From NCBI GenBank assembly GCA_964346295.1, contig CAYFUG010000002.1, positions 7,355 through 71,354 of the forward strand: a stretch of 64,000 nt of DNA, read 5' to 3'. Each line of letters opens with the position of its first letter. Within the stretch, counting starts at the first letter, position 1. The DNA is from an uncultured Bdellovibrionales bacterium. Its GTDB lineage: Bacteria > Patescibacteriota > Minisyncoccia > Moranbacterales > DUUL01. The position numbers were made by a program, and so were the translations under genes. The notes under the pieces were generated by a model. That model saw nothing but the letters and a program-made list of their open reading frames with translations, searched no databases and was not told where the DNA came from. Below, piece by piece: positions 16,283 to 63,417 of the stretch.

Positions 16283-16311
16283 AAACACTCGACCAATTTC
16301 AGTCTCAGTCT

Positions 16312-16462
16312 AGGGCTTTCAAATTTGAGCAAAGCTCTAGGCGACGCCGAGACTTTGGCCGACCTGTCCCGTCTAGCTTTAGCGATGCGGGAGCCGTACT
16401 GATTGGTACGGTGAGGTCAAAACGCAGGCGGCAACAACGAGATTTGCCAAACTTGAAAATCC
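16312..16462 (+). repeat. Intergenic structured repeat, copy A (about 150 nt), ending 1 nt before the start codon of the downstream gene
   Basis: 5' arm agggctttcaaatttgagcaaagctctagg and 3' arm gtacggtgaggtcaaaacgcaggcggcaacaacgagatttgccaaacttgaaaatcc are shared with copies at 34969-35130, 26175-26289, 61190-61269, 17690-17772 and inverted at 42706-42822. The terminal arms are mutually complementary. Confidence 0.8.
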
Positions 16463-16463
16463 T

Positions 16464-17519
16464 ATGAAAACAACCTATTTTTCCACATTCATCTCCGGCG
16501 CCCAAGAAATAGTCCGACGCGCCCTTCAAAAAAGATCCCGGGTCAAAATCATTGACCTGCTGGACGGTTTAGTAGTGTACCAGACGGACTATAACGAGAA
16601 AGATTTGCGAGAAATTCGCTTTTTTAACAACACTTTTCGTCTCCTGGGCAGCTACCAAAATGTCCACGATTTTCTAGATCTAATCAAGGCCGTTACCAAG
16701 GACAAATCTCTCGGTGGAACTCTCAAAAATCTTTTTACAACCCCTACCACCTATCGGCTATTCACCTCAGAGGAAAACCGCTCTATTAATCCGGGCTTGC
16801 CGGCCTTAGAAACTCTAGAGCAAAAAATCTCTCAAAATCGCTACCTAAAAACCGATTTTAAAAAATACCAACAAGAATTTTGGCTCATTTGGCGAAGAGG
16901 AAACCAGGGCTTTCTAGGCGCTCGTATTACTGGTAAAAAGCCTCTCGCCAAGCACCTCAAAGCTGGACAACTCCGCCCAGAACTGGCTCACTTAATTTGC
17001 CTAGCTTCTCGCCCTGGCCCCCAGGAGGTAATTTTGGATCCCTTTGCCGGCCAAGGAGGATTGCTAACGGAGCGCTTACGAGCTTTTCCTTTTAAAAAAG
17101 CTCTCGCCTTAGAAGAAGACGAGAAACTAGCTAATGACCTCAAGGGTAAAATTTTCCGCGCCTATCCCAAAGAAAAAGTCCAAGTCCGCCGAGAGAGCGC
17201 CCTGGAAATGGGATTTTTAGAAAATAACTCCATTGATAAGATCATCACCGATCCGCCCTGGGGACATTTTAAAAAACTAGATCAACCAGAAGAATTTTAC
17301 ACCCAGATGCTCCAGGAATTTTACCGGGTGCTTAAGTCGAGAGGCCTGGCAGTAATTTTGATGGGCGAGAATTTTCAATTTGACCAGATACTCCAAAGCA
17401 TGACAACTAAAGACAAAAATAATCAGGCAGATCCACTTCCCTCACCTTGGAAGATATCAGCCCAACATCACCTGTTAGTTTCTGGCCGAAAAGCTAATTT
17501 GTGGATTTTAAAAAAATAA
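16464..17519 (+). CDS. THUMP-domain class I SAM-dependent RNA methyltransferase (COG0116-like, N2-guanine/N6-adenine type)
   Basis: DPFAGQGG SAM motif I and DPPWG motif IV; N-terminal THUMP-like region. Confidence 0.8.
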   Translation: MKTTYFSTFISGAQEIVRRALQKRSRVKIIDLLDGLVVYQTDYNEKDLREIRFFNNTFRLLGSYQNVHDFLDLIKAVTKDKSLGGTLKNLFTTPTTYRLFTSEENRSINPGLPALETLEQKISQNRYLKTDFKKYQQEFWLIWRRGNQGFLGARITGKKPLAKHLKAGQLRPELAHLICLASRPGPQEVILDPFAGQGGLLTERLRAFPFKKALALEEDEKLANDLKGKIFRAYPKEKVQVRRESALEMGFLENNSIDKIITDPPWGHFKKLDQPEEFYTQMLQEFYRVLKSRGLAVILMGENFQFDQILQSMTTKDKNNQADPLPSPWKISAQHHLLVSGRKANLWILKK

Positions 17520-17628: not shown

Positions 17629-17689
17629 AAACTAGAAATGACTAACAGTCCAAGAACTTTCTCGTTTTAGGACATTTTTAGAGAAAAGT

Positions 17690-17772
17690 GAGGCTTTAGT
17701 TGAGAATTACTGAAGCGTACAGCGAGAGTAAAACGCAGCTTTTGACAACGAAATTTTCAAAGTGAGAAAGTC
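17690..17772 (+). repeat. Intergenic structured repeat, compact copy E
   Basis: gaggctttagttgagaattactgaagc + gtacagcgagagtaaaacgcagcttttgacaacgaaattttcaaagtgagaaagtc matches the family 5' and 3' blocks; lies just 3' of the tRNA-like gene. Confidence 0.65.
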
Positions 17773-17784
17773 TTAGCAATACAG

Positions 17785-24700: not shown

Positions 24701-25936
24701 ATGAGTTCACTCCAAGACCGAAAAGATCTGGAACCAAGAACCCAGAAACCTAACCAGCCCATTTTGGCTCTTGCCCCCATGGCCGGCTTCACTGACCTCC
24801 CTTTTCGCCTCCTTTGCAAACAACATGGAGCTGATTTGCTGTTCTCTGAGATGATTAGCGCCACTGGACTTTTTCACGAAAAACGAGATAAATCCCTCCA
24901 ACTAGCCCAATCCTGCCCAGAAGACTCTCCGATGTTTTTGCAGCTTTTCGGTTCCGACCCTCAGCATTTCGCCTTCGCCACCCGATTAATCAATCAACTC
25001 CCAGTCAGAGCCAATCCATCTTATTCCAGAAATGATCCTAACAAGAAATCTGAGGAGTTTGTTTTTAAAAAATTTCTAGGAGAATTCGAGCATCGAAGCG
25101 AGATGTACTTAAGGTACGACGAACGAGACGCGGAGAATTCAACAACCAAATTTGAGGAAAACAAACTTCTCAGGCCAGAAGGAATTGACCTAAACCTTGG
25201 CTGCCCCGTCAAAAAAGTCCTTCGCCAAGAGGCCGGCTGTGCTCTAATGGAGAAGCCGCACCTGGTGCGAGAAATTCTCAAGAATATTTTAGGCAACACT
25301 ACTCTCCCGGTTTCTATCAAAATCCGGTCCCGAGGCAAGAGCCTAGACGCCCTCAAGTTTCTAAATGCTCTAGCTGATTTGGACTGGCAATTAGTTACCG
25401 TCCACGCTCGTTCTTTGAATCAAGGTTTTTCCGGCGATCCAGATTGGGCTTTAGTGAAAGAAATCAAGAGAAACTTTCCCCACAAAACCGTTCTGGCCAA
25501 CGGCGGAATTACTGATCTTGCTACCGCCCAAAAAGCCCTAGAAGAAAGTCGAGCTGATGGCTTGGCGCTAGCCCGAGGCGTCCTCGGTAACCCTTGGTTA
25601 TTCAATAAGATCAAGACCAATAGTCGCCCCCTTTCGAAAGGGGAACCAGAAGATTGGCAGTTATCTGAAGCAGAAATATTGGCTACTCCCAGAAAAAAAA
25701 ATGAGGCGCTCGAAAAGCAAATCCCCCTTAGCCGAGTTAGAGCCACCGCCCTCCAGCACGCCAGATTATTTCAACAAATTTTTCCAACAAACGACTTAAA
25801 GCCCCTCCGATCTCATCTTATTTGGTACTTCAAAAATTTTTCTGGAAGCAAAAAAACTCGCTCCCAACTCACTGGAGTGAAAACCTTAGAAGAACTAGAA
25901 AAGATTTTGCAACAAACAATCAGTTCCTCCCTCTAG
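24701..25936 (+). CDS. tRNA-dihydrouridine synthase (Dus family) with internal insertion
   Basis: LALAPMAGFTDLPFRLLCKQHGADLLFSEMISA is the Dus N-terminal signature. Confidence 0.85.
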   Translation: MSSLQDRKDLEPRTQKPNQPILALAPMAGFTDLPFRLLCKQHGADLLFSEMISATGLFHEKRDKSLQLAQSCPEDSPMFLQLFGSDPQHFAFATRLINQLPVRANPSYSRNDPNKKSEEFVFKKFLGEFEHRSEMYLRYDERDAENSTTKFEENKLLRPEGIDLNLGCPVKKVLRQEAGCALMEKPHLVREILKNILGNTTLPVSIKIRSRGKSLDALKFLNALADLDWQLVTVHARSLNQGFSGDPDWALVKEIKRNFPHKTVLANGGITDLATAQKALEESRADGLALARGVLGNPWLFNKIKTNSRPLSKGEPEDWQLSEAEILATPRKKNEALEKQIPLSRVRATALQHARLFQQIFPTNDLKPLRSHLIWYFKNFSGSKKTRSQLTGVKTLEELEKILQQTISSSL

Positions 25937-26145: not shown

Positions 26146-26174
26146 ATAAACAATATCTAATCAACAACACAAAA

Positions 26175-26289
26175 CTTTTAAGTTTTAGGAAAGCTCTAGA
26201 CGAAGTCGAGGTTTTGAATAAGGCGCACTGAAATGTACGGCGATCTCAAAACGCAGGCAACAATAACGAGATTTTCAAAATTTGAAAGC
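26175..26289 (+). repeat. Intergenic structured repeat, copy B (about 115 nt)
   Basis: cttttaagttttaggaaagctctagacgaagtcgag ... gtacggcgatctcaaaacgcaggcaacaataacgagattttcaaaatttgaaagc. The ORF track translates it as MYGDLKTQATITRFSKFESF. Confidence 0.8.
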
Positions 26290-26301
26290 TTTGACTCTAC
26301 C

Positions 26302-30580: not shown

Positions 30581-30649
30581 AGTTTTCGCAGAAAAATCCC
30601 TGCCCTTAAGATCACAAAGAAATTAACTTCAAGGATAAAAGAAGCGAAT

Positions 30650-34914: not shown

Positions 34915-34968
34915 AATTCCCTTTTAAACATTAGATAACTCCAAAAAAACCAACCGCCTTCACAGCCC

Positions 34969-35130
34969 AGGGCTTTCAAGTTTGAGTGAAGCTCTACCTG
35001 AGTCTCGTCAACAGGCGAGATCAGCGCCGAGGTTTCGCTCGTAGAGAAGACATGCCATGGCATGTCTCTACCCATACTGTAAAAACAAAACGCAGGCGAC
35101 AACAACGAGATTCACCAAACTTAAAAGTCC
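34969..35130 (+). repeat. Intergenic structured repeat, copy C (about 162 nt), abutting the ftsH stop codon
   Basis: agggctttcaagtttgagtgaagctctacc ... aaaacgcaggcgacaacaacgagattcaccaaacttaaaagtcc. Internal perfect palindrome agacatgccatggcatgtct; inner helix gaagctctac/gtagagaag. Confidence 0.8.
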
Positions 35131-36984
35131 CTAGTCTTTTACCAACGCATCAAACTCATCCTTCTCCAAAGTCTCTTTCCTAATCAACTCCTTAGCTACC
35201 TTCTCTAAAGTCTCTGCTTTTTCGTCTAGAATCTCTCGAGCCTTTTGATGAGCCTCCTCAATAAAGCGACGCACTTCCTCGTCAATGCTTTCCGCCACTC
35301 TCTCGGAGTAGTTTTTGCGCTCTTGAATATCCCGCCCCAAAAATACCAAATCATCATTTTCGCCATAAGTAACCGGCCCCAACTTACTCATTCCAAAGCG
35401 AGTCACCAACTTACGAGCCATCTCCGTCGCCCGCTCTAGATCATTAGAAGCTCCCGTGGTCATCTCATCAAAAATTCGCTCCTCGGCGGCATAACCACCC
35501 AACAGCACCGCCAACTGATCCAAAAAGTAAGAGCGGAACTTCAAAGAACGATCCTTGTCGGGCACATTGAGAGTATAGCCAGCCGCGTGCCCCCGAGAAA
35601 CAATGGAGACTTTATGAACCGGATCAGCATTGGGCAAAGAAGCAGAAATCAAAGCATGCCCTCCTTCGTGATAAGCAGTAACCTTTTTTTCCTCTGGAGA
35701 AAAAACCTTGCTGCGCCGCTCCGGCCCCAAAATTACCTTTTCGATTGCCTCCCTCAGCTCGTCCATGCCAGTGGTTTTCTTGTCCCGCCGAGCCGCCAAA
35801 ATAGCTCCTTCATTAACCAAGTTTGCCAAATCCGCTCCAGAAAAACCCGGTGTTCGCTCAGCAATTTGACGCAATTTAACATCTTTTTCCATTTTTTTAT
35901 CAGTCACATGCAATTTTAAAATTGCCTCTCTTTCTTCAATATCGGGATTATCAATAGTCACTCGCCGATCAAAGCGTCCTGGGCGCAAAAGAGCGGGATC
36001 CAATACATCTGGTCGGTTAGTAGCCGCAATCACAATTACATTCACATTAGTGTCAAATCCGTCCATTTCTACCAAGATTTGATTAAGGGTCTGTTCTCGC
36101 TCGTCGTTACCACCGCCCACGCCGGCTCCTCGATGCCGACCTACTGCGTCAACTTCGTCAATAAAAACAATAGCCGGTGCATTTTTTTTAGCCTGCTTGA
36201 AGAGATCTCGCACTCGGCTAGCTCCCACTCCCACAAACATTTCTACAAATTCGCTTCCAGAGATTGAGAAAAAAGGCACATTAGCCTCTCCAGCCACTGC
36301 CTTGGCCAAAAGAGTTTTTCCAGTACCAGGAGGGCCCAACAGCAAAAATCCTCGCGGGATTCGCGCGCCCAAATCCCAAAATTTCTTAGGATTACGCAAA
36401 AATTCCACTACTTCGTAAAGCTCCTCTTTGGCCTCCTTGGCCCCCGCTACATCTTTGAAGGTAATTCGCCCTTCTTTGTCACGAGCCGGAAGCAAAACTC
36501 GAGCTCGAGAGCGACCAAAGGTCATGGCTTGATTATTGCCTCGCTGGGCTTGCCGCAATAAAAACCAAATAAAAAAAGCAATAAAGAAGAAAGGGAGTAT
36601 AAAAGGAATAAAAACACCCACCCAAAAATCTCGCCCCGAAGTGTCCTCCAGGTTTAACTGAATATCCCTTAGTTTATCCTTCTCCACTCCTACATTAGCC
36701 AAAGATTCCGTCAGGGAACTCTCCGGCTCCTTACGAGAAACTTCCTTGGTGCCATCTTTCAGCTCAATTTCCAGCTCATTGCCCTGGACTTTAATCTCAG
36801 TTACCTCTTCCTCGTTGATTTGACTGGCCAATTCGCTCAGGGAAACCTCCTTTTTCTCTTCTAAAGGAACAGAATAGAGCAAAACTAGACCAGAAATTAC
36901 CACAAAGATACCCAAAAAAATAAATAAATTTCGGGTCAATTTTTTAATAGGACCGCGATTATTAGGATTAACACTTTTTGCCAC
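35131..36984 (-). CDS. ftsH: ATP-dependent zinc metalloprotease FtsH
   Basis: GPPGTGKT Walker A, IDEVD Walker B, second region of homology, HEGGHA zinc motif. Confidence 0.95.
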
Positions 36985-41349: not shown

Positions 41350-42474
41350 CTAATTTTTCGCTAAATCTTGCAAAATTACAATCCCTTTCTTTAAATCCTC
41401 CTTTCGAGAAGCCAAAGAAATCCTAAAGTAGCCGGCCTTTTTAGAGAAAACCTCCCCCGGGACAATCAAAACCTTGCGATCCAGTAATTGCTGCACTAAA
41501 TCTGGCTGATTCTCCGGAATTTTAATCCAGACATAAAAAGCCCCTTCTGGATAAGCTAGCTGATAGTGATCCTGGAGGCCCTGATAAATCGAATCTCGCC
41601 GCCGCCGATATTCCGCCACTTCCTTCTCAATTCCTACCTGATCCCAAGCTTCCACCAAAGCCTTTTGAGCCATGCTAGGCGCACACACAAAAGAGTATTG
41701 TTGCAGCTTAGCCATTTGTTCAATCACTGTTTCTGGGGCGTGCGCAAAGCCCACTCGCCAACCAGGAATCGCCAAGCTCTTAGAAAAACCTCCTAAAGTG
41801 ATGGTCTCAGGGTAAATGCTCCCAATAGAAAAAAACTTTTGGTCGTAATCAAACTTTTCGTAAATCTCATCGGAGAGAATCATTAATTGATGTTGCTGGG
41901 CCACTGCCGCCACCGCCCCTAGCTCCCCTTGAGAATACACCGCTCCCGTGGGGTTATTAGGGGAATTCAGCAACAGCAACTTGGTTTTAGAGGTGATTAA
42001 CTTTTCTAAATCTTGAGCCTCTAAATGAAAATTACTGCCGTAAGTATCCCACAGCACCACTTTGACGCCTAAAAAATCCAAGAGTTGTTTATAGAGGACA
42101 AAATAAGGATCTGGCACAATCACTTCGTCTCCCGGATTCAGCAACATCCCAAAGGCCAGCAATAGACCTCCCGAAGTCCCCGAGGTTACTATAATTTCTT
42201 CTGGTTGAGCTTTGATTCCGTTTTCTACTTGAAGCTTTTTTGCGATTTTAGCCCGCAATTCTGGCAATCCCGCAGTGGGGGCATAGCCGTTAAAATCGTC
42301 CTGGATCGCCGCTTGAGCCGCCTTCTTTAGCGCTGGAGAAGCAGCAAAATCCGGCTGACCAATGGAGAGATTGACCCACTCCCCCGGCTTAGAACCAGCC
42401 GCCAAAGCAAACATCTTCCGGATCCCAGAAGGCTCCATTCGGCCAATGGATTGAGAAAAATTAAAATCCTCCAT
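41350..42474 (-). CDS. PLP-dependent class I/II aminotransferase
   Basis: Aminotransferase fold pattern with conserved SFSKSLAIPGWRVG PLP-lysine block. Confidence 0.85.
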   Translation of the reverse strand: MEDFNFSQSIGRMEPSGIRKMFALAAGSKPGEWVNLSIGQPDFAASPALKKAAQAAIQDDFNGYAPTAGLPELRAKIAKKLQVENGIKAQPEEIIVTSGTSGGLLLAFGMLLNPGDEVIVPDPYFVLYKQLLDFLGVKVVLWDTYGSNFHLEAQDLEKLITSKTKLLLLNSPNNPTGAVYSQGELGAVAAVAQQHQLMILSDEIYEKFDYDQKFFSIGSIYPETITLGGFSKSLAIPGWRVGFAHAPETVIEQMAKLQQYSFVCAPSMAQKALVEAWDQVGIEKEVAEYRRRRDSIYQGLQDHYQLAYPEGAFYVWIKIPENQPDLVQQLLDRKVLIVPGEVFSKKAGYFRISLASRKEDLKKGIVILQDLAKN

Positions 42475-42582
42475 ATTTTTAATTTAATAGAATTACCAAA
42501 ATAAAAACCGCCTGTCATTCCAAACTTCTTGCCAGATCTTCTGAAAGAAAACTCTAAGATTCTGAATCGGTCCCTAAAAAAT

Positions 42583-42610
42583 TTGACATTTAGTCTCTTT
42601 GTTCTATAAT
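42583..42610 (+). promoter_or_regulatory. Consensus sigma70-type promoter (TTGACA-16 nt-TATAAT)
   Basis: ttgaca at 42583-42588 and tataat at 42605-42610; predicted TSS near 42617. No plus-strand CDS follows. Confidence 0.5.
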
Positions 42611-42705
42611 TCAAGTACAAATCGCTTCCCCCAGTTTACTCCGACTGGAAGCTCCGAGACCTCCGTTCCTCCGGGAATGGGGGTCGTTTATTAGTGGAGG
42701 AATTA

Positions 42706-42822
42706 CGCATTTGGAAAATTTCGTTGTTACAAGCTGCGTTTAGCGCTCACCGTACCCTTCAGTACGCCTCCCGCTAAGCCTCGCTTGCGCCTAGTAATTT
42801 CCTCAAATCCGTAATCCCTAGG
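42706..42822 (-). repeat. Intergenic structured repeat, copy K, inverted orientation
   Basis: Minus strand reads ctagggattacggatttgaggaaattactaggcgcaagcgagg ... gtacggtgagcgctaaacgcagcttgtaacaacgaaattttccaaatgcg, matching the family 5' and 3' arms. Confidence 0.75.
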
Positions 42823-42866
42823 CTATACATCAGCGAGCGACCATTGAAGGCTATAATTATTAAGTA

Positions 42867-42886
42867 CCCCGCCTTGACGGGGTTTT
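42867..42886. terminator. Intrinsic terminator (likely bidirectional) between the candidate transcript and the convergent mazF-like gene
   Basis: ccccg-ccttga-cgggg followed by tttt on the plus strand. Confidence 0.6.
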
Positions 42887-42979
42887 GCTTCCTATAAACA
42901 ACACTCATCCATAGACTCTATCCTACCCGACCTCTAGCTACTCCTAATTTGCCTTTTGAGTTTTATCTTTTGAGCTTTC

Positions 42980-43375
42980 CTAGAATCCCAGCAACCTAGC
43001 CAACCCAGCTTTCACTTCATTAAATTCCCCCCGGTTAATCTTAGAAATCTTTCGTAGCAGTCGCTTGCTACTCAAAGCCCGCAATTGCGACAAAATCACT
43101 TGGTAACCTTCTTTTTCGTAAGTGATCGGTTGGTAATACCGCCCTTGTTTTTGCTGGCTAGTCACCGGCAACCCCCAAAAGAGATTATGATTAAATTTTT
43201 TCAATATCAAAACCGGCCGCTCAAATTTATCGTGCTTGCCATCTTGCTCATGGCCAATATTAACGCCTAGGCTACTCCACCAAATTTCTCGCTCCTTAAA
43301 ATAAAGCTTTTCCTTGCGCTTAACCCCATGCAACTGCTTTTTTTGCTTATTCCAAGTATCAAAATCTTTTTTCAT
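42980..43375 (-). CDS. PemK/MazF-family endoribonuclease toxin with 20-aa N-terminal extension; no adjacent antitoxin gene
   Basis: REIWWSSLGVNIGHEQDGKHDKFERPVLIL...GLPVTSQ...VILSQLRALSSKRLLRKISKINRGEFNEVKAGLARLL aligns to the MazF/Kid G-E-Q-G/RP-LVL/PITS/DQIRTIDKSRL pattern. Confidence 0.7.
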   Translation of the reverse strand: MKKDFDTWNKQKKQLHGVKRKEKLYFKEREIWWSSLGVNIGHEQDGKHDKFERPVLILKKFNHNLFWGLPVTSQQKQGRYYQPITYEKEGYQVILSQLRALSSKRLLRKISKINRGEFNEVKAGLARLLGF

Positions 43376-43493: not shown

Positions 43494-43730
43494 TTAACTC
43501 AAAACAGTTCCAATTTCTTCCTGAAATATCCCTGCCAATAAAACCAACCAAATAACTAAACTGATCAAAAACAACCCTACAGCAAAAAGAACTTTCCTCC
43601 AAGAACTTAAGCCCCTGATTTTCTTCTTGAAAGTAAATAATAAAACAACAAAAAGTACCAATGTTGGAGACAAAAGAAGCCCGATTCCAAAAAGTATAGG
43701 CCCTCCAGAATGCCCAAAATCTGCTATCAT
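43494..43730 (-). CDS. Small two-TM membrane protein, paralogue of 44391..44642
   Basis: MIADFGHSGGPILFGIGLLLSPTLVLFVVLLFTFKKKIRGLSSWRKVLFAVGLFLISLVIWLVLLAG aligns along its length with the paralogue. Confidence 0.5.
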   Translation of the reverse strand: MIADFGHSGGPILFGIGLLLSPTLVLFVVLLFTFKKKIRGLSSWRKVLFAVGLFLISLVIWLVLLAGIFQEEIGTVLS

Positions 43731-43771: not shown

Positions 43772-44401
43772 CTAGAAATTACCAAGAAAGTCTCTTGCCT
43801 TCCTTAGCGCCCTTCCTCGGTGGCTAACTTGATCCTTTTCCTGGAGAGTAATCTCCGCCTCCGTTTTATCTAGAGAGGGAAGATAGAACACCGGATCATA
43901 ACCGAATCCACCTGTCCCCCGCGGCTCTGTTGCAATTTGACCTTCGTTCACCCCTCGCCAAGTTCGGGCTTGTTCTTTCTGAGGATCATACACCGCTACC
44001 ACCGCCACAAAACGCGCCGTGCGTTCTTTTTCTGGCACATCCTTCAACTCCTTTAGGAGTTTTCGATAACGATCCTCGTCACTCCCCGCACAATACCGCG
44101 CTGAATAAACTCCCGGTCGCCCGCCCAAAGCATCCACCTCCAAACCAGAGTCATCTGCCAGAGTCAGCATCCCAAATCGATTGCCTAAAATAATCGCCTT
44201 GATCAAAGCATTGCCTTCGAAAGTCTCCGCCGTCTCTTCTACTTCCAGCTCCTCCGGGGCAACTCTTCTCCCCAAAAACTCGCCCAGATCCGCCAGGCTC
44301 ACCAATTCCAAATCCAAGCCCTTCAAAGCCTCTCTGATTTCTATCACCTTACCCTTGTTTTGAGTCGCGATTAGTAACTTTCTCATAGTCCTAAACACCA
44401 C
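43772..44401 (-). CDS. rdgB: Non-canonical purine NTP pyrophosphatase (RdgB/Ham1)
   Basis: LLIATQNKGKVIEIREAL ... TFEGNALIKA ... GFGYDPVF are Ham1 family blocks. Confidence 0.9.
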   Translation of the reverse strand: MVFRTMRKLLIATQNKGKVIEIREALKGLDLELVSLADLGEFLGRRVAPEELEVEETAETFEGNALIKAIILGNRFGMLTLADDSGLEVDALGGRPGVYSARYCAGSDEDRYRKLLKELKDVPEKERTARFVAVVAVYDPQKEQARTWRGVNEGQIATEPRGTGGFGYDPVFYLPSLDKTEAEITLQEKDQVSHRGRALRKARDFLGNF

Positions 44402-44642
44402 AAAGCATAAGCCCTACTGCTAAAAATATCCAACTAATAAAACTAAGGACATAGAACCCCGCTCCCAATAATAACTTCTTCCAGAAAACTAGAGCTTTAA
44501 GCTTCTCCTTGAAAATAATCAATAAAATAGCAAAAATAACCAAGGGAGGTAAAAACAAAAGTGCCAACAAAAAAAATACATAAGACTGGGGCCCAGCCAA
44601 GGCTGAACAACCTCCAATAATTTTTGAACAATCTCCAATCAT
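44391..44642 (-). CDS. Small two-TM membrane protein, paralogue of 43494..43730; overlaps rdgB by 11 nt
   Basis: MIGDCSKIIGGCSALAGPQSYVFFLLALLFLPPLVIFAILLIIFKEKLKALVFWKKLLLGAGFYVLSFISW. A duplicated 5' fragment (ccaaaatctgctatcat) lies upstream. Confidence 0.5.
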   Translation of the reverse strand: MIGDCSKIIGGCSALAGPQSYVFFLLALLFLPPLVIFAILLIIFKEKLKALVFWKKLLLGAGFYVLSFISWIFLAVGLMLCGV

Positions 44643-44780: not shown

Positions 44781-45803
44781 CTATTTCTGCCGTCTTTTCG
44801 CCTCCTCAAAAACAATCCGATAAAACTCCTTGAGAAACTCCTCCGGTAGCTTAGTTTGCTTTTTCCGATTCTCAATAATCGCCTGCTCCCTTCTAGGATC
44901 AAACACCGAAATCCCCTCCTTCTTTTTAATTTTCCCTATTTTTTCTGCCACTTTAAAACGCTCTTCTAGTAGACTTAAGATTTGGCCGTCTAGATAGTCA
45001 ATTAAGGCTCGCTCCCGAGCAAACTGGCCTCGAGTCAACCTTTTTTTAAGCAACATTCGATTAACTTGATGAACCTTCTTGAGAAAATTCTTCCTCGTTT
45101 TTTCGCCGTAAGGATTACGATTCTGCAAATCACAAAACAACTCGTCACTATTGTTGACCACAAAAGGCAACAAACCCTGCAAATGCCGATAGCCCAAAGT
45201 GGTGACATCTACCTCTTTGAGAGGCATTTTTTGCAAAATCTTACCCACAAACTGAGCCAAAACTTGACTATGAGCCGCCTGCTGATCATGCTTTTGGGGC
45301 GTCTGAATCAGCACTTTAAGCCCCGCCCTTTTTAGGCCTTGGCTAATTTGATCTAAAAGTTTTTTTTGAATCCGCACCGGGCAAAGCACCACCTTGAGAC
45401 CTTTTAGTCCTTCGTTGATTTGGTAACTATCCCGCCCCCAGGTAGGGTGGGTGGCCAGTAGCTCCACTTCGGGGCCAAAATGAGCTTGCATCGCGCGAGC
45501 CGGTTCCACTTTTACCGAGCAAACATCTACCACCAAAGTACCAGAGTTTACCAAGGGCGCTATTTTCTTCACTACTCCCTCAAATTTGCCAATCGGCACC
45601 GCCAAAATCACCCCCTCACAAGCCGCTACTTCTTTGAGGCTAGCAGGAATCAAACTGGACTTAGTCAAACGCTTCTGATCAAGATGAGAGTCGAACACTA
45701 AAATCTCCTCAAAATAATCCGCTAAAATCTCTCCCACCAGAGAGCCAAAAGTACCAAACCCTACGATTCCAATTTTAGTTTGAGGGGTAATTTTATTTAG
45801 CAA
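44781..45803 (-). CDS. tyrA: Prephenate/arogenate dehydrogenase with a C-terminal AroQ chorismate mutase domain
   Basis: KIGIVGFGTFGSLVG Rossmann motif, HPTWG; C-terminal RERALIDYLDGQILSLLEERFKVAEKIGKIKK...VFDPRREQAI chorismate mutase pattern. Confidence 0.75.
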   Translation of the reverse strand: MLNKITPQTKIGIVGFGTFGSLVGEILADYFEEILVFDSHLDQKRLTKSSLIPASLKEVAACEGVILAVPIGKFEGVVKKIAPLVNSGTLVVDVCSVKVEPARAMQAHFGPEVELLATHPTWGRDSYQINEGLKGLKVVLCPVRIQKKLLDQISQGLKRAGLKVLIQTPQKHDQQAAHSQVLAQFVGKILQKMPLKEVDVTTLGYRHLQGLLPFVVNNSDELFCDLQNRNPYGEKTRKNFLKKVHQVNRMLLKKRLTRGQFARERALIDYLDGQILSLLEERFKVAEKIGKIKKKEGISVFDPRREQAIIENRKKQTKLPEEFLKEFYRIVFEEAKRRQK

Positions 45804-45819
45804 AACTTGAAATTAACTC

Positions 45820-46236
45820 TTAAACATTGAATTCCCTCTCTATCTCGCTTTCTATCCTCTCAATTCTTTGCATTATTTCCTGCTGCCCCTCTCCTCCTTC
45901 AGTTGCCTCCCTTGCTTCCTCCTTCGCCTTCTTCATTGTCCTGAGGAGTTCCTCTAGTTTAGCAATGACACTTTCGATTTTCTTTTTTTCGGCCCTGACT
46001 CTTGCAATTTCTCTTTCCAAGCTGTCTCTGTCTGTTAGGTTTCCCGCATGCCCTAAAGCAAATTCAATCCCTCCGATTTCCTCATTAATATCAACCAGTG
46101 GTCTCAGCCTGCTTTGAGCAAGGGAAATTTTTTCCTTGATTCTATCTACCGTAAGACTGATTCCCGCATAACCAACCTTGAACATTATTTCACCTTCCCT
46201 TGGCCTCCTCCTCTTTTCAACAGGAATTTTTTCCAT
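45820..46236 (-). CDS. Hypothetical coiled-coil protein
   Basis: 138-aa ORF; E/R/K-rich C-terminal heptads. Confidence 0.4.
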   Translation of the reverse strand: MEKIPVEKRRRPREGEIMFKVGYAGISLTVDRIKEKISLAQSRLRPLVDINEEIGGIEFALGHAGNLTDRDSLEREIARVRAEKKKIESVIAKLEELLRTMKKAKEEAREATEGGEGQQEIMQRIERIESEIEREFNV

Positions 46237-46242
46237 AAAAAA

Positions 46243-46830
46243 TTATTTTCTAGCTACTATAAAAGTAGTAAAGTTAAACTTCAAGTCCTGAATGCGCTCT
46301 TCTAGTAACTCCAAGCTGTAAAGCTCGGAGCAAATCCGAGGCGCGATCACCGCGCAGGTAGGCGCCAAATCACCCTCTTTCAAGGCCTTGGCAGCACTGG
46401 CAGTATCAGAATATTCCTCTAGCTCCACTTCTGGCCACTTCCGTCGCAAATACATCCGGCACTGCTTCAGTGCCTGCGGATGAGAAACAATCTTTTCAAT
46501 CGCACTACTCCGAGTAGCCGGCAAAACATGCAAGTTCATCTGAATATCAATCTCGAAAATTTTCTCGATCTCAAAAGTATGCCGACTCATAGAATAGACC
46601 GCCTCGTAAACAATTCCTCCGTTAGAATTTTCAATCGGAAAAACCGCCTGATCCACCTCACCCTTGTCCAGCGCCGTCAGAGCATTTTCTGAATTAAGCC
46701 AGTAACTCAATTCAAACTCATTCTGCGCAACTCCCTCCTTTTCACAATAATAATTAGCCGCCTCTTCGGAAAAGCTTCCTCGATTCCCCGAAACCCCAAT
46801 TTTAAGCTTATTTTTTTTAGTCATAACCAA
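46243..46830 (-). CDS. pheA: Prephenate dehydratase (PDT domain only, no ACT domain)
   Basis: KIGVSGNRGSFSEEAANYY PDT N-terminal signature. Confidence 0.75.
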   Translation of the reverse strand: MVMTKKNKLKIGVSGNRGSFSEEAANYYCEKEGVAQNEFELSYWLNSENALTALDKGEVDQAVFPIENSNGGIVYEAVYSMSRHTFEIEKIFEIDIQMNLHVLPATRSSAIEKIVSHPQALKQCRMYLRRKWPEVELEEYSDTASAAKALKEGDLAPTCAVIAPRICSELYSLELLEERIQDLKFNFTTFIVARK

Positions 46831-47546: not shown

Positions 47547-47769
47547 AGAAACAAAAGATTAACAAATTTTATTACTAACCACAGATACCAACCCTTCTCG
47601 CTAAAAAGCCAAGATTAGCCTTGATGTTATTAAGCCAATCTTAGCACTAATGACAAAAAAATCAAAAGAGTCTCCCGGCAGGAAGACTCTTTTGAGAAAA
47701 TAAAGACTTAAGGTTTTCAATTTTTAGAAAATTTTAGGAAAAATCGAGTACTGAGCGAGATATACCGAA

Positions 47770-47830
47770 GTGTATAACAAACGAGTAACAGAGATTTTGA
47801 CATCAAAATTTTCAAAATTTGGAAGCCCCT
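47770..47830. repeat. Diverged repeat-family copy with palindromic core, directly 3' of tuf
   Basis: aacaaacgagtaacagagattttgacatcaaaattttcaaaatttggaagcccc resembles the family 3' block plus the palindrome. Confidence 0.45.
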
Positions 47831-47839
47831 CTTTTGTTT

Positions 47840-60683: not shown

Positions 60684-61154
60684 CTACTTGAGTTTACCGC
60701 AGAATTCCTCGATTTCTTTTTTCACCTCTTTAGCTTCAGCTTTCACTTGCTTATCCTTAATTCCTAATTTCGCCACGGGAGCTTGAAGTAACTCTTCCAA
60801 GTCCCTGAAGGTGTTGCTAACTTCTCCCCCAAAAGTACAGAAGAGGGCTATCTTGGTATTTTTGAGGGATTCTTGATGCTCCAAGGCATAAGTTCGAATG
60901 GCGGGAGTCGCCGTTCCCACCCACACCGGAGTGCCTAAAATCACTAGATCGTAGTCCGCTGGATCTTGAGTAAACTTAATTTTGGTAGCCTTTTTCTTGA
61001 GGGCATCGTGGCCTCCCACTAAAAACCCTTTGATGCCCTTACGACTCTTTTCGTCTTTAATTTCATCTAAGTCCGCCTCTAAAATCTTGGCGATTTGCTC
61101 CGCTACTTGTTTAGTATGCTCCGTTCTAGAGTAATAAGCAATGAGAATTTTCAT
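60684..61154 (-). CDS. Flavodoxin-like fold protein (flavodoxin / NAD(P)H-dependent FMN reductase family); start moved to MKILIAYYS
   Basis: MKILIAYYSRTEHTKQVAEQIA flavodoxin N-terminal phosphate-binding pattern. The track ORF's extra 25 codons run into the repeat element. Confidence 0.7.
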   Translation of the reverse strand: MKILIAYYSRTEHTKQVAEQIAKILEADLDEIKDEKSRKGIKGFLVGGHDALKKKATKIKFTQDPADYDLVILGTPVWVGTATPAIRTYALEHQESLKNTKIALFCTFGGEVSNTFRDLEELLQAPVAKLGIKDKQVKAEAKEVKKEIEEFCGKLK

Positions 61155-61189
61155 TTTAGTTTTAATGCAAAAATGAGAGCGATAAGATT

Positions 61190-61269
61190 TAAGGAGTTTC
61201 CTCCTTAAATCTTTGTACGGTGAAATCAAAATGCAAGCGACAACAACGAGATTTTCAAAAAAGAAAGTC
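61190..61269 (+). repeat. Intergenic structured repeat, copy D, abutting the pnp stop codon
   Basis: taaggag-tttc-ctcctta hairpin + gtacggtgaaatcaaaatgcaagcgacaacaacgagattttcaaaaaagaaagtcc. The ORF track translates it as MYGEIKMQATTTRFSKK. Confidence 0.75.
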
Positions 61270-63417
61270 CTACTTCAACCGTTTCACTTCATTCTCCATT
61301 CCCTTCATAGTCAAATTAATCCGGCCCATTTGATCAATCTCCGCTACTTTAACTTTAACCTTCTGACCTACCTTGAGATAGTTTTCCACTTTATCAATTC
61401 GCTCGTCAGCAATCTTGGAAATATGCACCAAGCCATCTTTTCCGCCCGGCCAGAGCTCCACAAAGGCTCCAAAGTCCATCAATTTGACCACTCGAGCATC
61501 CGGATAAATCTCGCCTGCTTCCACTTCACGAACAATATCCTGGATCATCTTTTGGGCTTTTTGACCACCCTCTCCGTTTTCGGCAGTGATGAAGATAGTC
61601 CCATCGTCTTCAATGTCAATATTAGCCCCAGTTTCATCAATAATCTCGTTGATAATTTTTCCGCCTGGCCCAATCACCTCCCGAATCTTTTCTTCGGCAA
61701 TTTTCATGGTAATAATACTCGGGGCGTAAGATGAAAGTTCTGCTCGAGGCTCTGGGATAGCTGCTAACATCACCTCCATAATCTCCATTCGAGCCTTATG
61801 AGCCTGCTCCAGCACCTCAATCACTACCTCGGGAGAAATTCCGTCAATTTTCACATCCATCTGCATAGCAGTGATTCCGTCTTTAGTTCCTGCCACCTTA
61901 AAGTCCATATCACCCCAATGGTCTTCCGGTCCTTGAATGTCGGAAAGAATCTTGTACTCGCCATTTTCTCCAGTGATAATTCCCATCGCGATCCCACTCA
62001 CCGGGCTTTTGATTGGAACTCCCGCGTCCATTAAGGAGAGAGTGGATCCGCAAGTAGAGGCCATCGAAGAAGATCCATTAGAACCCAACACTTCACTTAC
62101 CAACAGCATAGTATACGGAAAGTCTTCCTTAGAAGGCAGTACCGGAAGCAAGGCTTTTTCCGCTAAGGCTCCGTGACCAATTTCTCGTCTCCCAGGGCCA
62201 CGCATTGGTCGTACTTCTCCCACACTGAAGGGAGGGAAGTTATAGTGGTGGATATAGCGCTTCTTCTCATCAACCTCCATTGTATCAATAATTTGCTGAT
62301 CACCAGGAGCTCCTAAGGTAGTCACATTAAGAACTTGTGTTTCTCCTCGTTGAAAAAGAGCGCTTCCGTGAATCCGCGGCAATACTCCTACCTTAGAAAT
62401 AATCTTCCGAACCTCATCGGTTCGCCTTCCATCGGGACGAGCCTCTTCCTGAAGAACTTTTTCGTGCAAAATTTCATTGAGACGATTCTCGAATACCAAA
62501 TCGGCTTCTGACCAGCGTTGTTCTTGCAATTTTTTTTCTTCGGCAGTTTGAGCCGGGAACTGCTTCTTTAAAAGCCCCTTGAGGCCGTCTTTAATTTTGT
62601 CCATCTTACCCTTTTGATCGTCTTTAGCTTTAGTATAAAAGGCGTCAGTAAGATCTTCTTGCTCCAAGTAATCTCGCACTTGCTTCTCCCAAGCTTCTTC
62701 TGGCTCAGTAAGAGGCACTGTAGTTTTTTCCTTACCTAACTCGTCGATAATTGACTGCTCAAAACGAGCAACCTTTTGGACTTCTTCGTAAGCCTGCCCA
62801 ATTGCCTCCGCCATCTCTTGATTAGAAATTTCTTCTCCATCCGCCTCAATCATATTGATTTTGTCAGCAGTTCCGGCCACCAACAAATCCAAGTCGCTCT
62901 CTTCCAAATGATCCGCTGCCGGATTGATTACTCGTTCGTTTTCTACCCGACCAATTCGAGCGGCTGCCACTGGTCCCCGCCAAGGAATATTAGAAACTCC
63001 CAATGCCAAAGAAGCGGCAATTATCCCAACAATCGAAGGATCATTTTCTTTGTCGATGGAAAGCACCGTGATAATTACCTGCACTTCGTTGCGCATCCGC
63101 TCATCAAAAAGCGGCCGGATAGTCCGGTCAATGATACGCCCATTGAGAATAGCCTTATCAGAAGGGCGACCTTCTCGCTTAATAAAACGCGAACCTTTAA
63201 TTTTATTGGCCGCGTAATAACGCTCTTCGTAATCCACAAACAGCGGGAAGAAGTTCATGCCTTCTCGTCGTTCTTTGCTCATGGTAGCAGTAGCCAACAC
63301 TACTGTGTCACCACATTGCACCTTAACTGAGCCGTTGGCTTGTTGCGCCAATTCGCCCAATTCTGCTTTCAGTTGCTGGCCGCCAAAATCGACCGCAAAT
63401 TCTTTTTTGTTCATCAA
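61270..63417 (-). CDS. pnp: Polyribonucleotide nucleotidyltransferase (PNPase)
   Basis: Two RNase PH domains, KH and C-terminal S1 (GQKVKVKVAEIDQMGRINLT); 715 aa. Confidence 0.95.
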   Translation of the reverse strand: MMNKKEFAVDFGGQQLKAELGELAQQANGSVKVQCGDTVVLATATMSKERREGMNFFPLFVDYEERYYAANKIKGSRFIKREGRPSDKAILNGRIIDRTIRPLFDERMRNEVQVIITVLSIDKENDPSIVGIIAASLALGVSNIPWRGPVAAARIGRVENERVINPAADHLEESDLDLLVAGTADKINMIEADGEEISNQEMAEAIGQAYEEVQKVARFEQSIIDELGKEKTTVPLTEPEEAWEKQVRDYLEQEDLTDAFYTKAKDDQKGKMDKIKDGLKGLLKKQFPAQTAEEKKLQEQRWSEADLVFENRLNEILHEKVLQEEARPDGRRTDEVRKIISKVGVLPRIHGSALFQRGETQVLNVTTLGAPGDQQIIDTMEVDEKKRYIHHYNFPPFSVGEVRPMRGPGRREIGHGALAEKALLPVLPSKEDFPYTMLLVSEVLGSNGSSSMASTCGSTLSLMDAGVPIKSPVSGIAMGIITGENGEYKILSDIQGPEDHWGDMDFKVAGTKDGITAMQMDVKIDGISPEVVIEVLEQAHKARMEIMEVMLAAIPEPRAELSSYAPSIITMKIAEEKIREVIGPGGKIINEIIDETGANIDIEDDGTIFITAENGEGGQKAQKMIQDIVREVEAGEIYPDARVVKLMDFGAFVELWPGGKDGLVHISKIADERIDKVENYLKVGQKVKVKVAEIDQMGRINLTMKGMENEVKRLK

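What the first reader, a model, noticed from the sequence alone, without database searches (positions are those of the whole stretch)
42583..42886. Perfect sigma70-consensus promoter and strong terminator bracket a 270-nt ORF-less transcript antisense to an inverted repeat copy
TTGACA (42583-88) - 16 nt - TATAAT (42605-10) is a textbook promoter, improbable by chance in 64 kb. About 270 nt downstream lies a GC-rich hairpin (ccccg ccttga cgggg) followed by tttt. No plus-strand ORF lies between, and both flanking genes are on the minus strand. The candidate transcript does not have tmRNA T-arm or tag features, the SRP AGGUCCGGAAGGAAGCAGC motif, or RNase P P4 motifs. It does contain the reverse complement of a full repeat-family copy (K, 42706-42822). 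It would therefore be an abundant antisense RNA to the element family, or the element carries or attracts promoter activity. The terminator is shared with the convergent mazF-like gene.
Basis: partly seen in the sequence, partly recalled or inferred. Interest (0 to 1): 0.6.

Follow-up and report, generated by a model that had tools for sequence, protein, structure and literature searches.

The report
Conserved small RNA beside PemK toxin
The perfect promoter drives a roughly 75-base non-coding RNA that lies tail-to-tail with a MazF/PemK-type toxin gene in every related locus that could be checked, so it is probably the RNA antidote of a toxin with no protein antidote; the repeat copy behind it is a later insertion.

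Summary
TTGACA-16-TATAAT (42583-42610, +) is the only 12/12 promoter in the window. A terminator lies at 42866-42886, there is no credible ORF between them, and a repeat copy sits inside the interval.

The interpretation does not hold. The promoter belongs to a short structured RNA (42617-42695): 5'-ACAAAU, hairpin P1, invariant UCCGAG, and a GC-rich hairpin P2 with a U-tail. A covariance model of this RNA hits 81 of 83 loci that encode homologues of the adjacent PemK/MazF-like gene (42980-43375, -). The hit is always convergent, and in 63 of 81 loci it ends within 7 nt of the PemK stop codon. The two misses have 12 nt or less of contig after the stop. There are no hits in 1.1 Mb of control DNA. 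Both helices covary and the promoter is conserved. Rfam has no match, and no protein gene is conserved near PemK.

I read this as a PemK-plus-sRNA two-gene module of Patescibacteria, with the RNA as the likely antitoxin. That function is inferred, not shown.

The repeat copy K (42696-42826) is one of eight diverged, structure-conserving, MITE/RPE-like elements. It has been inserted between the sRNA and PemK, which explains the unusual 270-nt promoter-to-terminator interval.

The parts
42583..42610 (+). Sigma-70 promoter of the sRNA (-35 TTGACA 42583-88, 16-nt spacer, -10 TATAAT 42605-10), preceded by an A-tract CTAAAAAAT.
   Evidence: 12/12; the only perfect site in the window. The homologous position carries TTGACA or TTGACT plus TATACT or TATAAT in most of 76 distinct related loci.
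42617..42695 (+). PemK-convergent sRNA: 5' ACAAAU (42617-22), hairpin P1 (42624-42652, enlarged here), linker UCCGAG (42653-58), hairpin P2 with UCCG loop (42658-42685), tail GUUUAUUAG (42686-94).
   Evidence: CM R2 hit 42617-42692, 33.8 bits, E=3.7e-7, the only hit in the window (alignment). MFE fold -33 kcal/mol, z=-3.4. The 5' end is inferred from the 6-nt distance to the -10 hexamer, as in 60 of 76 relatives.
42696..42826 (+). Copy K of a dispersed, roughly 130-nt structured repeat (MITE/RPE-like), inserted after the sRNA terminator. It is the only + strand copy of eight.
   Evidence: nhmmer E=6e-32; CM R1 127.5 bits. Family structure: 84% of pairs kept, 23 of 34 pairs covary.
42827..42979 (.). 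153 nt of unknown origin between element K and the PemK stop.
   Evidence: terminator. No similarity elsewhere in the window for the queried 42821-42900 stretch. In relatives this space does not exist: the gap is -6 to +7 nt in 63 of 81 loci, against 287 nt here.
42980..43375 (-). PemK/MazF-like endoribonuclease toxin gene (131 aa), the conserved partner of the sRNA.
   Evidence: Pfam PF02452, E=7e-13. The family profile aligns to B. subtilis EndoA/MazF 4MDX with the RPV motif and the Thr position aligned. Homologues are found across Patescibacteria.
16305..16465 (-). Repeat copy A, for context: the same family as K.
   Evidence: CM R1 128.1 bits.
17645..17776 (-). Repeat copy B, directly 3' of a tRNA-like gene (17785-17883) and before its terminator.
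   Evidence: CM R1 113.2 bits.
25045..25173 (-). Repeat copy H, in frame inside the Dus gene.
   Evidence: CM R1 64.4 bits and not in the training set. Dus residues 97-161 of this protein have no counterpart between E. coli DusB residues 104 and 113.
26164..26294 (-). Repeat copy C.
   Evidence: CM R1 125.2 bits.
34962..35133 (-). Repeat copy D. Its first bases, TAG, are the FtsH stop codon.
   Evidence: CM R1 100.2 bits.
47702..47831 (-). Repeat copy G, 8 nt after the EF-Tu stop.
   Evidence: CM R1 104.4 bits.
61134..61273 (-). Repeat copy E, overlapping the stop codon of the 715-aa gene 61270-63417.
   Evidence: CM R1 79.4 bits.

Best explanation
Shown: the perfect promoter is that of a small non-coding RNA of about 75 nt here and 45-65 nt in relatives. 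This RNA forms a fixed two-gene module with a PemK/MazF-type toxin gene throughout Patescibacteria. The two genes converge, and in the normal layout the U-tail of the sRNA terminator is templated by the A-run that contains the PemK stop codon. The RNA consists of a 5' single-stranded AYWARU, a short hairpin that usually carries a UUCG loop, an invariant single-stranded CCGAG, and a GC-rich terminator hairpin that often carries a GNRA loop. No protein gene is conserved next to PemK.

Inferred: the sRNA is the antitoxin or dedicated regulator of PemK.

Preferred mechanism, about 0.4: the abundant, rigid RNA presents its invariant single-stranded motifs to PemK and blocks it as a pseudo-substrate, in the manner of a type III system.

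Second mechanism, about 0.3: it pairs with a PemK mRNA 3' end that reads into the sRNA gene, in the manner of type I systems that overlap at their 3' ends.

Specific to this window: a copy of an unrelated mobile repeat (K) plus 153 nt have been inserted between the sRNA terminator and the PemK stop. The 270-nt promoter-to-terminator interval is therefore the sRNA plus read-through into the insertion. I predict two RNA species, one of about 75 nt and one of about 270 nt.
For: - CM R2 finds the sRNA on the strand opposite PemK in 81 of 83 PemK-homologue loci. The two misses have 9 and 12 nt of contig after the stop.
- In 63 of 81 loci the sRNA 3' end lies -6 to +7 nt from the end of the stop codon, with a mode of -2.
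- R2 gives no hit at E<=1 in 1.11 Mb of unrelated loci, none at E<=0.01 in three Patescibacteria loci without PemK, and one hit in the window.
- A second hit in L108 and L111 lies at the end of a second PemK paralogue.
- On 78 distinct sequences, 84.3% of cells are paired against 68.8% when shuffled. The covariation score is 0.414 against 0.174 (0 of 500 shuffles reach it). Slid controls give 36-70%. Seven of 8 P2 pairs and 2 of 3 P1 pairs show double changes.
- The RNA is not coding: P1 is 10, 11 or 12 nt or longer, so CCGAG falls in different frames.
- The promoter is conserved: 60 of 76 distinct upstream regions reach at least 10/12, and the -10 hexamer ends 6 nt before the modelled 5' end in 60 of 76.
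- There is no protein partner. Only 8 of 82 loci have a same-strand ORF of 45 aa or more ending within 40 nt upstream, and their sizes are unrelated. No ORF family is shared by more than 5 of 76 loci within 1.5 kb.
- The family profile aligns to B. subtilis EndoA/MazF (4MDX) across the RPV motif and the Thr position. That these correspond to the catalytic Arg and Thr is my own knowledge of MazF.
- Support for a trans or protein-directed action: CCGAG is invariant and the 5' motif nearly so, although the PemK partners are only about 50% identical. The loops are UUCG and GNRA types rather than open kissing loops. In this window the sRNA and its perfect promoter are intact although they lie 287 nt from PemK.
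Against: - There are no expression data, so the RNA, its ends and any effect on PemK are all inferred.
- The strict convergent, stop-codon-abutting geometry is what 3'-overlapping type I systems show. A purely protein-binding RNA does not need it.
- G-U and A-C counts in the helices are about equal (42 against 38), so pair statistics do not identify the functional strand. Orientation rests on the promoter and the U-tail.
- One R2 hit (L100 4787-4835, 30 bits) lies after a 188-aa ORF that gave no PemK match in tblastn.
- In 14 of 81 loci no in-frame stop was found before the sRNA gene, which may be an artefact.
- PemK toxicity is assumed from family membership. The match to solved MazF structures is weak (E about 3e-4).
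- The Campylobacter pVir PemK homologue might have a protein antitoxin. I could not check this in the literature.
Confidence: 0.6

Rival explanations
1. The partners are the same, but the mechanism is type I-like. PemK transcripts lack a terminator of their own and read into the sRNA gene. The abundant convergent sRNA pairs with that 3' end, or RNA polymerases collide there, and this triggers cleavage and decay of the toxin mRNA.
For: - The sRNA 3' end overlaps the PemK stop codon in most loci.
- On the PemK-sense strand, P2 is followed by the complement of GGCCUCCGAG, with no U-run, so read-through is expected (consensus).
- The geometry matches B. subtilis txpA/RatA and bsrG/SR4 (own knowledge).
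- An antisense sRNA, CjrA, is reported as a type I antitoxin on C. jejuni pVir (PMC10470494). That plasmid's PemK homologue has a convergent promoter and hairpin at its stop.
Against: - A cis-antisense RNA needs no conserved primary sequence, yet CCGAG is invariant.
- The loops are closed UUCG and GNRA tetraloops.
- In this window the sRNA lies 287 nt from PemK, behind a hairpin and a highly structured element, and yet both genes are intact.
- Classical type I toxins are small membrane peptides, not RNases.
Confidence: 0.3
2. One reading: the 270-nt RNA is an abundant antisense regulator of the dispersed repeat family.
For: The transcript would contain copy K if the first terminator is read through. 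K is the only + strand copy, and its arm is 72% complementary over 108 nt to copy B on the DNA + strand.
Against: - The promoter and first 79 nt belong to an sRNA family present in 81 loci that lack the repeat.
- K lies beyond that sRNA's terminator.
- Copies B, D, E and G lie directly downstream of - strand genes, so their RNA would have the same sense as K.
- Identity between copies is 44-70%.
- The element is self-complementary, so apparent antisense matches are trivial.
Confidence: 0.04
3. The repeat element carries or creates the promoter, as Correia elements do.
For: Some MITEs generate promoters (own knowledge). Copy B also lies in a promoter-driven RNA gene.
Against: - The promoter ends 85 nt upstream of K.
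- It is conserved at the same place in relatives without the element.
- No 11/12 or 12/12 promoter lies next to any other copy.
- The promoter near B (TTGACA-17-TAATCT) lies upstream of the tRNA-like gene that precedes B.
Confidence: 0.02
4. The RNA is a diverged known housekeeping RNA (SRP, 6S, tmRNA or RNase P), or the promoter is a chance match with no function.
For: A perfect promoter and terminator are typical of stable-RNA genes. About 0.1 perfect promoter sites per window are expected by chance (my estimate).
Against: - No Rfam match in the window region or over the sRNA in 17 related loci.
- At 45-65 nt the RNA is too short for those families.
- It is strictly linked to PemK in variable neighbourhoods.
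- The promoter is conserved.
Confidence: 0.02

Closest known systems
Type III toxin-antitoxin systems (ToxIN, CptIN, TenpIN)
   Same: A protein endoribonuclease toxin with no protein antitoxin, and a small, abundant, structured RNA encoded beside it. ToxN has a Kid/MazF-like fold (own knowledge), so there is a fold-level precedent for RNA inhibition of such an RNase.
   Different: Here the toxin matches Pfam PemK_toxin and got no match in PADLOC-DB, which holds models of known anti-phage defence systems; I did not confirm that it includes ToxN/AbiQ models. The RNA is a single unit, not a tandem repeat array. It is convergent and downstream rather than upstream on the same strand. Binding and processing were not tested.
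Type I systems overlapping at their 3' ends (B. subtilis txpA/RatA, bsrG/SR4); CjrA antisense antitoxin of C. jejuni pVir (Shen et al. 2016, cited in PMC10470494)
   Same: Convergent toxin and sRNA genes whose 3' ends meet, and a strong sRNA promoter. The pVir and Nitratiruptor plasmid PemK homologues (42-49% identity) also have a convergent promoter and hairpin at the stop.
   Different: Classical type I toxins are short hydrophobic peptides. The Patescibacteria sRNA has invariant single-stranded motifs that antisense pairing does not need. CM R2 does not hit the Campylobacterota loci. I could not establish whether CjpT is the pVir PemK homologue, because the paper is not held.
Type II MazEF/PemIK, including the antisense RNA aMEF of E. 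coli mazEF (PMC8749433)
   Same: The toxin belongs to the MazF/PemK superfamily, and an RNA is transcribed against the toxin locus.
   Different: There is no MazE/PemI-like gene or any conserved neighbouring protein. According to that paper, aMEF stimulates mazEF and its promoter is poorly conserved. Here the promoter is strongly conserved.
pemK RNA motif (Rfam RF02913; accession from the text of bioRxiv 10.1101/2021.11.03.467129)
   Same: A conserved RNA structure associated with pemK genes.
   Different: As I recall, it is described as a 5'-UTR cis-regulatory motif of Firmicutes. It is not among the matches listed in the window region or over the sRNA in 17 related loci. The RNA here is a separate convergent transcript.
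Rickettsia palindromic elements, Neisseria Correia elements and other MITEs (relevant to element K only)
   Same: A dispersed, roughly 130-nt element with long complementary termini, found in intergenic spaces that abut stop codons, once in frame inside a protein gene (Dus), and inside RNA transcription units.
   Different: The copies are old (44-70% identity) yet keep 84% of their pairs through compensatory changes, and they keep a conserved asymmetric core. No transposase or clear target duplication was seen. The element was not found outside this organism.

Membership tests
Known housekeeping or curated RNA families (Rfam 15: tmRNA, SRP, 6S, RNase P, pemK motif RF02913 and others) | A match to the family covariance model | tested here: not met
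   No hit at E<=1 in 42400-43050 (three weak matches at E 1.6-5.5). No hit over the sRNA in 17 related loci at E<=1. ARAGORN finds no tmRNA.
PemK-convergent sRNA family (defined here) | 5' AYWARU, then P1, then CCGAG, then P2 terminator, convergent with a PemK gene | tested here: met
   R2 hit 42617-42692, 33.8 bits, E=3.7e-7, with all motifs present. This locus departs from the usual spacing: it lies 287 nt from the PemK stop rather than about 0.
Type II MazEF/PemIK | Toxin of the MazF/PemK fold | tested here: met
   PF02452, E=7e-13. The profile hits EndoA/MazF structures at E about 3e-4.
Type II MazEF/PemIK | An adjacent, co-transcribed protein antitoxin gene | tested here: not met
   8 of 82 loci have any same-strand ORF of 45 aa or more ending within 40 nt upstream, and these are of unrelated sizes. 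No neighbouring ORF family occurs in more than 5 of 76 loci.
Type III TA (ToxIN-like) | RNA antitoxin made of tandem repeats upstream of the toxin on the same strand | tested here: not met
   A single unit, convergent and downstream.
Type III TA (ToxIN-like) | The RNA binds and inhibits the toxin protein, and the toxin processes the RNA | not testable with these tools
   Needs biochemistry. Only indirect support is available: invariant single-stranded motifs.
Type I TA | An antisense RNA complementary to the toxin mRNA | tested here: inconclusive
   The genes converge and meet at the stop codon. Overlap of the transcripts depends on PemK read-through, which is inferred from the lack of a sense-strand U-tract.
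Type I TA | The toxin is a small hydrophobic peptide | tested here: not met
   The toxin is a 131-aa PemK-family protein.
MITE or palindromic mobile element (element K) | Multiple dispersed copies with complementary termini, in varied contexts including coding sequence | tested here: met
   Eight copies in 64 kb, one of them in frame in Dus.
MITE or palindromic mobile element (element K) | Target-site duplication and a cognate transposase | tested here: inconclusive
   TA or TAG is present at several ends but not consistently. No transposase was noticed among the genes with Pfam hits on record in 31350-52474. The rest of the genome is not available.

The most novel reading that the evidence does not exclude
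Patescibacteria carry a widespread, mobile, two-gene toxin-antitoxin module in which a MazF/PemK-fold endoribonuclease is neutralised by a dedicated 50-nt convergent sRNA rather than by a protein. The sRNA would bind the toxin through an invariant CCGAG-containing single-stranded platform. This would be a new TA architecture bridging types I, II and III, together with a new RNA family absent from Rfam.
Probability: 0.4. Interest if true: 0.75.

Novelty: new variant of a known kind. Interest (0 to 1): 0.62.

Why it matters
MazF/PemK toxins are the textbook type II toxins, and they are defined by a protein antitoxin. A large family of them, spread over many Patescibacteria lineages, has no conserved protein neighbour and is instead strictly tied to a conserved small RNA. 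That RNA would be a new RNA family and probably a new way of controlling this toxin fold.

The module is small enough to test directly in E. coli: about 400 nt of toxin gene plus about 100 nt for the sRNA gene and its promoter.

It also adds one of the few candidate regulatory sRNAs with strong comparative support in these unculturable, reduced-genome bacteria.

The window also shows a structure-conserving dispersed repeat that inserts into intergenic spaces, RNA transcription units and a protein-coding gene. This resembles the Rickettsia palindromic elements, but in a different reduced-genome lineage.

Tried and rejected
- An exact-pattern scan for the repeat core (AATYTCGTTRTYNNNNNYTGCRTTTNNNNNTNNCNGTA) found nothing in GTDB representative genomes, JGI metagenomes or viral contigs, not even the source contig. 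These collections therefore lack this organism.
- The search for related loci with the aminotransferase returned Planctomycetota at 48% identity or less. This was useless for synteny, but the loci served as 1.1 Mb of negative control.
- Contigs carrying the exact aminotransferase protein are the same strain, 99.98-100% identical, and give no variation.
- S1-protein relatives at 70-79% identity (L071, L073, L075) contain neither the repeat nor the sRNA. A hairpin after S1 in L071 looked similar by eye, but it aligns poorly and folds no better than shuffles (z=-0.7), so I rejected it.
- The K and B loci share nothing upstream of the repeat, so there is no common 'RNA gene plus element' unit.
- I considered a coding reading of the sRNA, because AUG occurs in ACAAAUGG. 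I rejected it because CCGAG changes frame between sequences.
- I looked for a conserved PemK 5' UTR or a site complementary to the sRNA, and found none.
- G-U against A-C counts did not reveal the functional strand for either RNA.
- NCBIfam and PADLOC have no model for this PemK family.
- CM R2 does not hit the Campylobacterota plasmid homologues.
- Shen et al. 2016 (CjrA/CjpT) is not held, so I could not map it onto pVir. 'Cjpv2, cis to pVir0033' is probably a different locus, because PemK is the 43rd CDS listed on pVir.
Full report
1. THE OBSERVATION

The + strand carries TTGACA (42583-88), a 16-nt spacer and TATAAT (42605-10). This scores 12 of 12 and is the only perfect site on either strand of the window; four other sites reach 11/12.

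A terminator-like hairpin, ACCCCG-CCTTGA-CGGGGT, lies at 42866-42883 and is followed by TTTT.

Between the promoter and that hairpin, the only + strand ORF of 30 aa or more is a 31-aa TTG ORF. It starts before the -10 hexamer ends, upstream of the inferred transcript start.

Both neighbouring genes are on the - strand. One is a class I/II aminotransferase (41350-42474). The other is a 131-aa PemK_toxin protein (42980-43375; Pfam E=7e-13).

Rfam gives no hit at E<=1 in 42400-43050; three weak matches (RsmY twice, SscA) appear at E 1.6-5.5. ARAGORN finds no tmRNA.

2. THE REPEAT FAMILY

The repeat copy inside the interval is real. An nhmmer search and a covariance model (R1) find eight copies in 64 kb:
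- K at 42696-42826 on the + strand.
- A, B, H, C, D, G and E at 16305-16465, 17645-17776, 25045-25173, 26164-26294, 34962-35133, 47702-47831 and 61134-61273, all on the - strand.

Copy H scores 64 bits and was not used to train the model.

The copies are only 44-70% identical. Even so, 84% of the cells in a 34-pair structure are paired, against 29-50% in slid controls, and 23 pairs show changes on both sides. The structure is a long closing stem, a conserved asymmetric core (AATYTCGTTRTY..YTGCRTTT) and a CCGTAC hairpin.

G-U and A-C counts are equal, 14 against 12. The pairing therefore looks symmetric between the two strands, which suggests it is maintained at the DNA level rather than by an oriented RNA.

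Seven of the eight copies share one strand, while GC skew is negative across the whole window. Their orientation relative to the local genes is mixed.

The copies abut or contain stop codons (D, E, G). One follows a tRNA-like gene and precedes its terminator (B). One lies in frame inside the Dus gene: residues 97-161 of this protein have no counterpart between residues 104 and 113 of E. coli DusB.

This is the behaviour of a MITE or of a Rickettsia-palindromic-element-like selfish element.

I could not find the family in relatives or in public collections.

3. WHAT THE PROMOTER BELONGS TO

The organism is a member of Patescibacteria. Its S1-protein relatives carry source names such as Patescibacteria group and Moranbacteria.

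Its PemK protein has many homologues at 50-60% identity across Patescibacteria lineages.

I first fetched three such loci (L076, L077, L078). In each, a strong sigma-70 promoter, a short transcript and a GC-rich hairpin with a U-tail lie on the opposite strand directly after the PemK stop. The sequences are visibly homologous to window 42617-42695.

A metagenome scan with a PemK alignment then gave 80 more loci.

I built a covariance model, R2, on 70 sequences (53 positions, 11 pairs). It hits 81 of the 83 PemK loci, always on the strand opposite to PemK and next to its 3' end. The two loci without a hit end 9 and 12 nt after the stop.

Specificity controls:
- The window has exactly one hit, 42617-42692 (33.8 bits, E=3.7e-7).
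- There is no hit at E<=1 in 1.11 Mb of unrelated loci.
- There is no hit at E<=0.01 in three Patescibacteria loci without PemK.
- A second hit in L108 and L111 lies at the end of a second PemK paralogue.
- One 30-bit hit in L100 follows a 188-aa ORF that gave no PemK match in tblastn.

4. ANATOMY AND SUPPORT FOR AN RNA

The consensus is 5'-AYWARU, then P1 (commonly GGC-UUCG-GCC), then U-CCGAG, then P2 (GC-rich, often with a GNRA loop), then CG-WUUUUU.

On 78 distinct sequences:
- 84.3% of cells are paired, against 68.8% when shuffled.
- The covariation score is 0.414 against 0.174, and 0 of 500 shuffles reach it.
- Slid controls give 36-70%.
- Seven of 8 P2 pairs and 2 of 3 P1 pairs show double changes.

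P1 varies in length (10, 11 or 12 nt, or longer), so CCGAG falls in different reading frames. This excludes a coding explanation, even though the sequence contains an AUG.

The promoter is conserved. In 76 distinct upstream regions, 60 have at least 10/12 matches, against 4 of 1600 random positions. The -35 hexamer is TTGACA or TTGACT in 61 of them. The -10 hexamer ends 6 nt before the modelled 5' end in 60.

Rfam has no family for this RNA. No match covers it in 17 related loci at E<=1, and the pemK motif RF02913 is not among the matches listed.

5. GEOMETRY

In 63 of 81 loci the sRNA 3' end lies -6 to +7 nt from the end of the PemK stop codon, with a mode of -2. The A-run that contains the stop codon is thus the template of the sRNA U-tail.

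In the window the distance is 287 nt, the largest seen. The extra DNA is repeat copy K (42696-42826) plus 153 nt that hold the second terminator.

The window's sRNA keeps every conserved feature: ACAAAU, UCCGAG and P2 with a UCCG loop. Its P1 is enlarged (42624-42652), and its U-tract is interrupted (GUUUAUUAG).

I predict a species of about 75 nt and a species of about 270 nt.

6. IS THERE A PROTEIN ANTITOXIN?

Only 8 of 82 loci have a same-strand ORF of 45 aa or more that ends within 40 nt upstream of PemK. Their lengths (48 to 522 aa) are unrelated.

I clustered all ORFs of 40 aa or more lying within 1.5 kb of PemK in 76 non-identical loci. No family is shared by more than 5 loci. The neighbourhoods are otherwise unrelated.

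PemK upstream regions share no motif. Many have a -10-like box 7-12 nt before the ATG, which suggests short-leader or leaderless mRNAs.

The family profile aligns to B. subtilis EndoA/MazF (4MDX) across the RPV motif and the Thr position. That these are the catalytic Arg and Thr is my own knowledge of MazF.

PemK and the sRNA therefore behave as a self-contained, mobile two-gene module.

7. MECHANISM (INFERRED)

The only conserved partner of a presumably toxic RNase is this RNA. The most economical reading is that the RNA is its antitoxin or dedicated regulator. I put this at about 0.6-0.75.

There are two candidate modes.

(a) Type III-like: the RNA binds the protein and blocks it. Four points favour this:
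- CCGAG is invariant and the 5' motif is nearly so, in single-stranded segments, although the proteins are only about 50% identical.
- The helices are capped by closed UUCG and GNRA tetraloops rather than open kissing loops.
- The promoter is close to consensus, which implies high abundance.
- In this window both genes are intact despite being separated.

(b) Type I-like: the RNA pairs with a PemK mRNA 3' end. Two points favour this:
- The stop-codon-abutting convergent geometry is very strict.
- The PemK-sense strand has no U-tract after P2.

I prefer (a) at about 0.4 over (b) at about 0.3. The two modes are not mutually exclusive.

8. COMPARISON WITH KNOWN SYSTEMS

- The locus is not a member of type II, because it has no protein antitoxin.
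- It is not a member of the known type III families. The RNA is a single unit rather than a repeat array, it is convergent rather than upstream, and the toxin matches Pfam PemK.
- It is not a classical type I system, because the toxin is a 131-aa RNase.
- It is not the Firmicutes pemK 5'-UTR motif.
- E. coli aMEF is an antisense RNA of mazEF, but that locus has MazE and a poorly conserved promoter (PMC8749433).
- PemK homologues at 42-49% identity on Campylobacterota plasmids also have a convergent promoter and hairpin at the stop. These are C. jejuni pVir 30634-31038 and Nitratiruptor pNitYY0814. The Nitratiruptor RNA even begins AUAAAU. R2 does not hit either locus.
- A type I antisense antitoxin, CjrA, is reported on pVir (PMC10470494, citing Shen et al. 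2016). I could not obtain that paper to learn whether its toxin is the PemK homologue, so this remains a lead and not a test.

9. VERDICT

The 'antisense to the repeat family' and 'promoter attracted by the element' interpretations are rejected.

What is actually there is a conserved sRNA, absent from Rfam, that is the fixed partner of a PemK/MazF-type toxin across Patescibacteria. In this locus a structure-conserving mobile repeat has been inserted between the two genes.

In terms of novelty this is a new variant of a known kind: a TA-like module with an RNA partner. I score interest at about 0.6.

Noticed in passing
window 17785-17883 (-): A tRNA-like gene with its own promoter (TTGACA-17-TAATCT). 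Rfam tRNA scores 47.4 bits, but ARAGORN does not call it. The acceptor, D and T arms are normal, but the anticodon arm is a continuous 18-bp hairpin with no anticodon loop. It is followed by repeat copy B and a terminator. No other tRNA is detected in 64 kb.
   Followed up: partly
window 25045-25173 (-), inside the Dus ORF 24701-25936 (+): A copy of the dispersed repeat lies in frame within the dihydrouridine synthase gene, just before the IDLNLGCP motif. It falls within residues 97-161 of this protein, which have no counterpart between E. coli DusB residues 104 and 113. This resembles a Rickettsia palindromic element.
   Followed up: partly
window 10188-10417 and 10686-10915: Two 99% identical 230-nt direct repeats, 498 nt apart, in the 762-nt gap upstream of the 253-aa ORF 9399-10160 (-) (probably rpsB, by my reading of its sequence; not scanned). 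An 11/12 promoter (TTGACA-16-TAGAAT) lies at 10557 on the - strand between them. No Rfam match.
   Followed up: partly
window 41350-42474 (-), and 44781-46830: The best GTDB relatives of the aminotransferase are Planctomycetota at 48% identity or less. Prephenate dehydrogenase/chorismate mutase and prephenate dehydratase genes lie nearby. This looks like a probably acquired aromatic amino-acid gene set, which as far as I know is unusual for Patescibacteria.
   Followed up: no
window 43494-43730 and 44391-44642 (both -): Two paralogous hydrophobic ORFs of about 80 aa flank the Ham1 gene. They have no Pfam family.
   Followed up: no
whole window: GC skew is negative throughout (-0.03 to -0.28), so the - strand is G-rich across the whole window. 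Seven of the eight repeat copies lie on that strand whatever the local gene direction. If the skew marks replication direction (my inference), this hints at replication-linked insertion, possibly through single-stranded DNA.
   Followed up: partly
L004 and L005 (Logan contigs) ending at window 42788: Independent assemblies of the same strain break inside element K, as expected for a multi-copy repeat.
   Followed up: no
L159 (C. jejuni pVir) 1885-2000 (-); L160 (Nitratiruptor plasmid) 1882-1935 (-): PemK homologues on Campylobacterota plasmids also have a convergent promoter and hairpin RNA that ends at the toxin stop codon. The Nitratiruptor RNA begins AUAAAU, like the Patescibacteria sRNA.
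   Followed up: partly
L100 4787-4835 (-): An sRNA-like hit (30 bits) lies 123 nt after a 188-aa ORF that gave no PemK match in tblastn (it looks LexA-like by eye; not scanned). It may be an orphan or a remnant copy.
   Followed up: partly
L091 and L133 (31 nt) and L092 (81 nt) between the sRNA and the PemK stop: In these three loci the sRNA is not flush with the stop. In L091 and L133 an extra perfect hairpin (for example GCAAAAACATCTCTCTGAGATGTTTTTGC) lies in the gap. These are further small insertions at the same junction.
   Followed up: no
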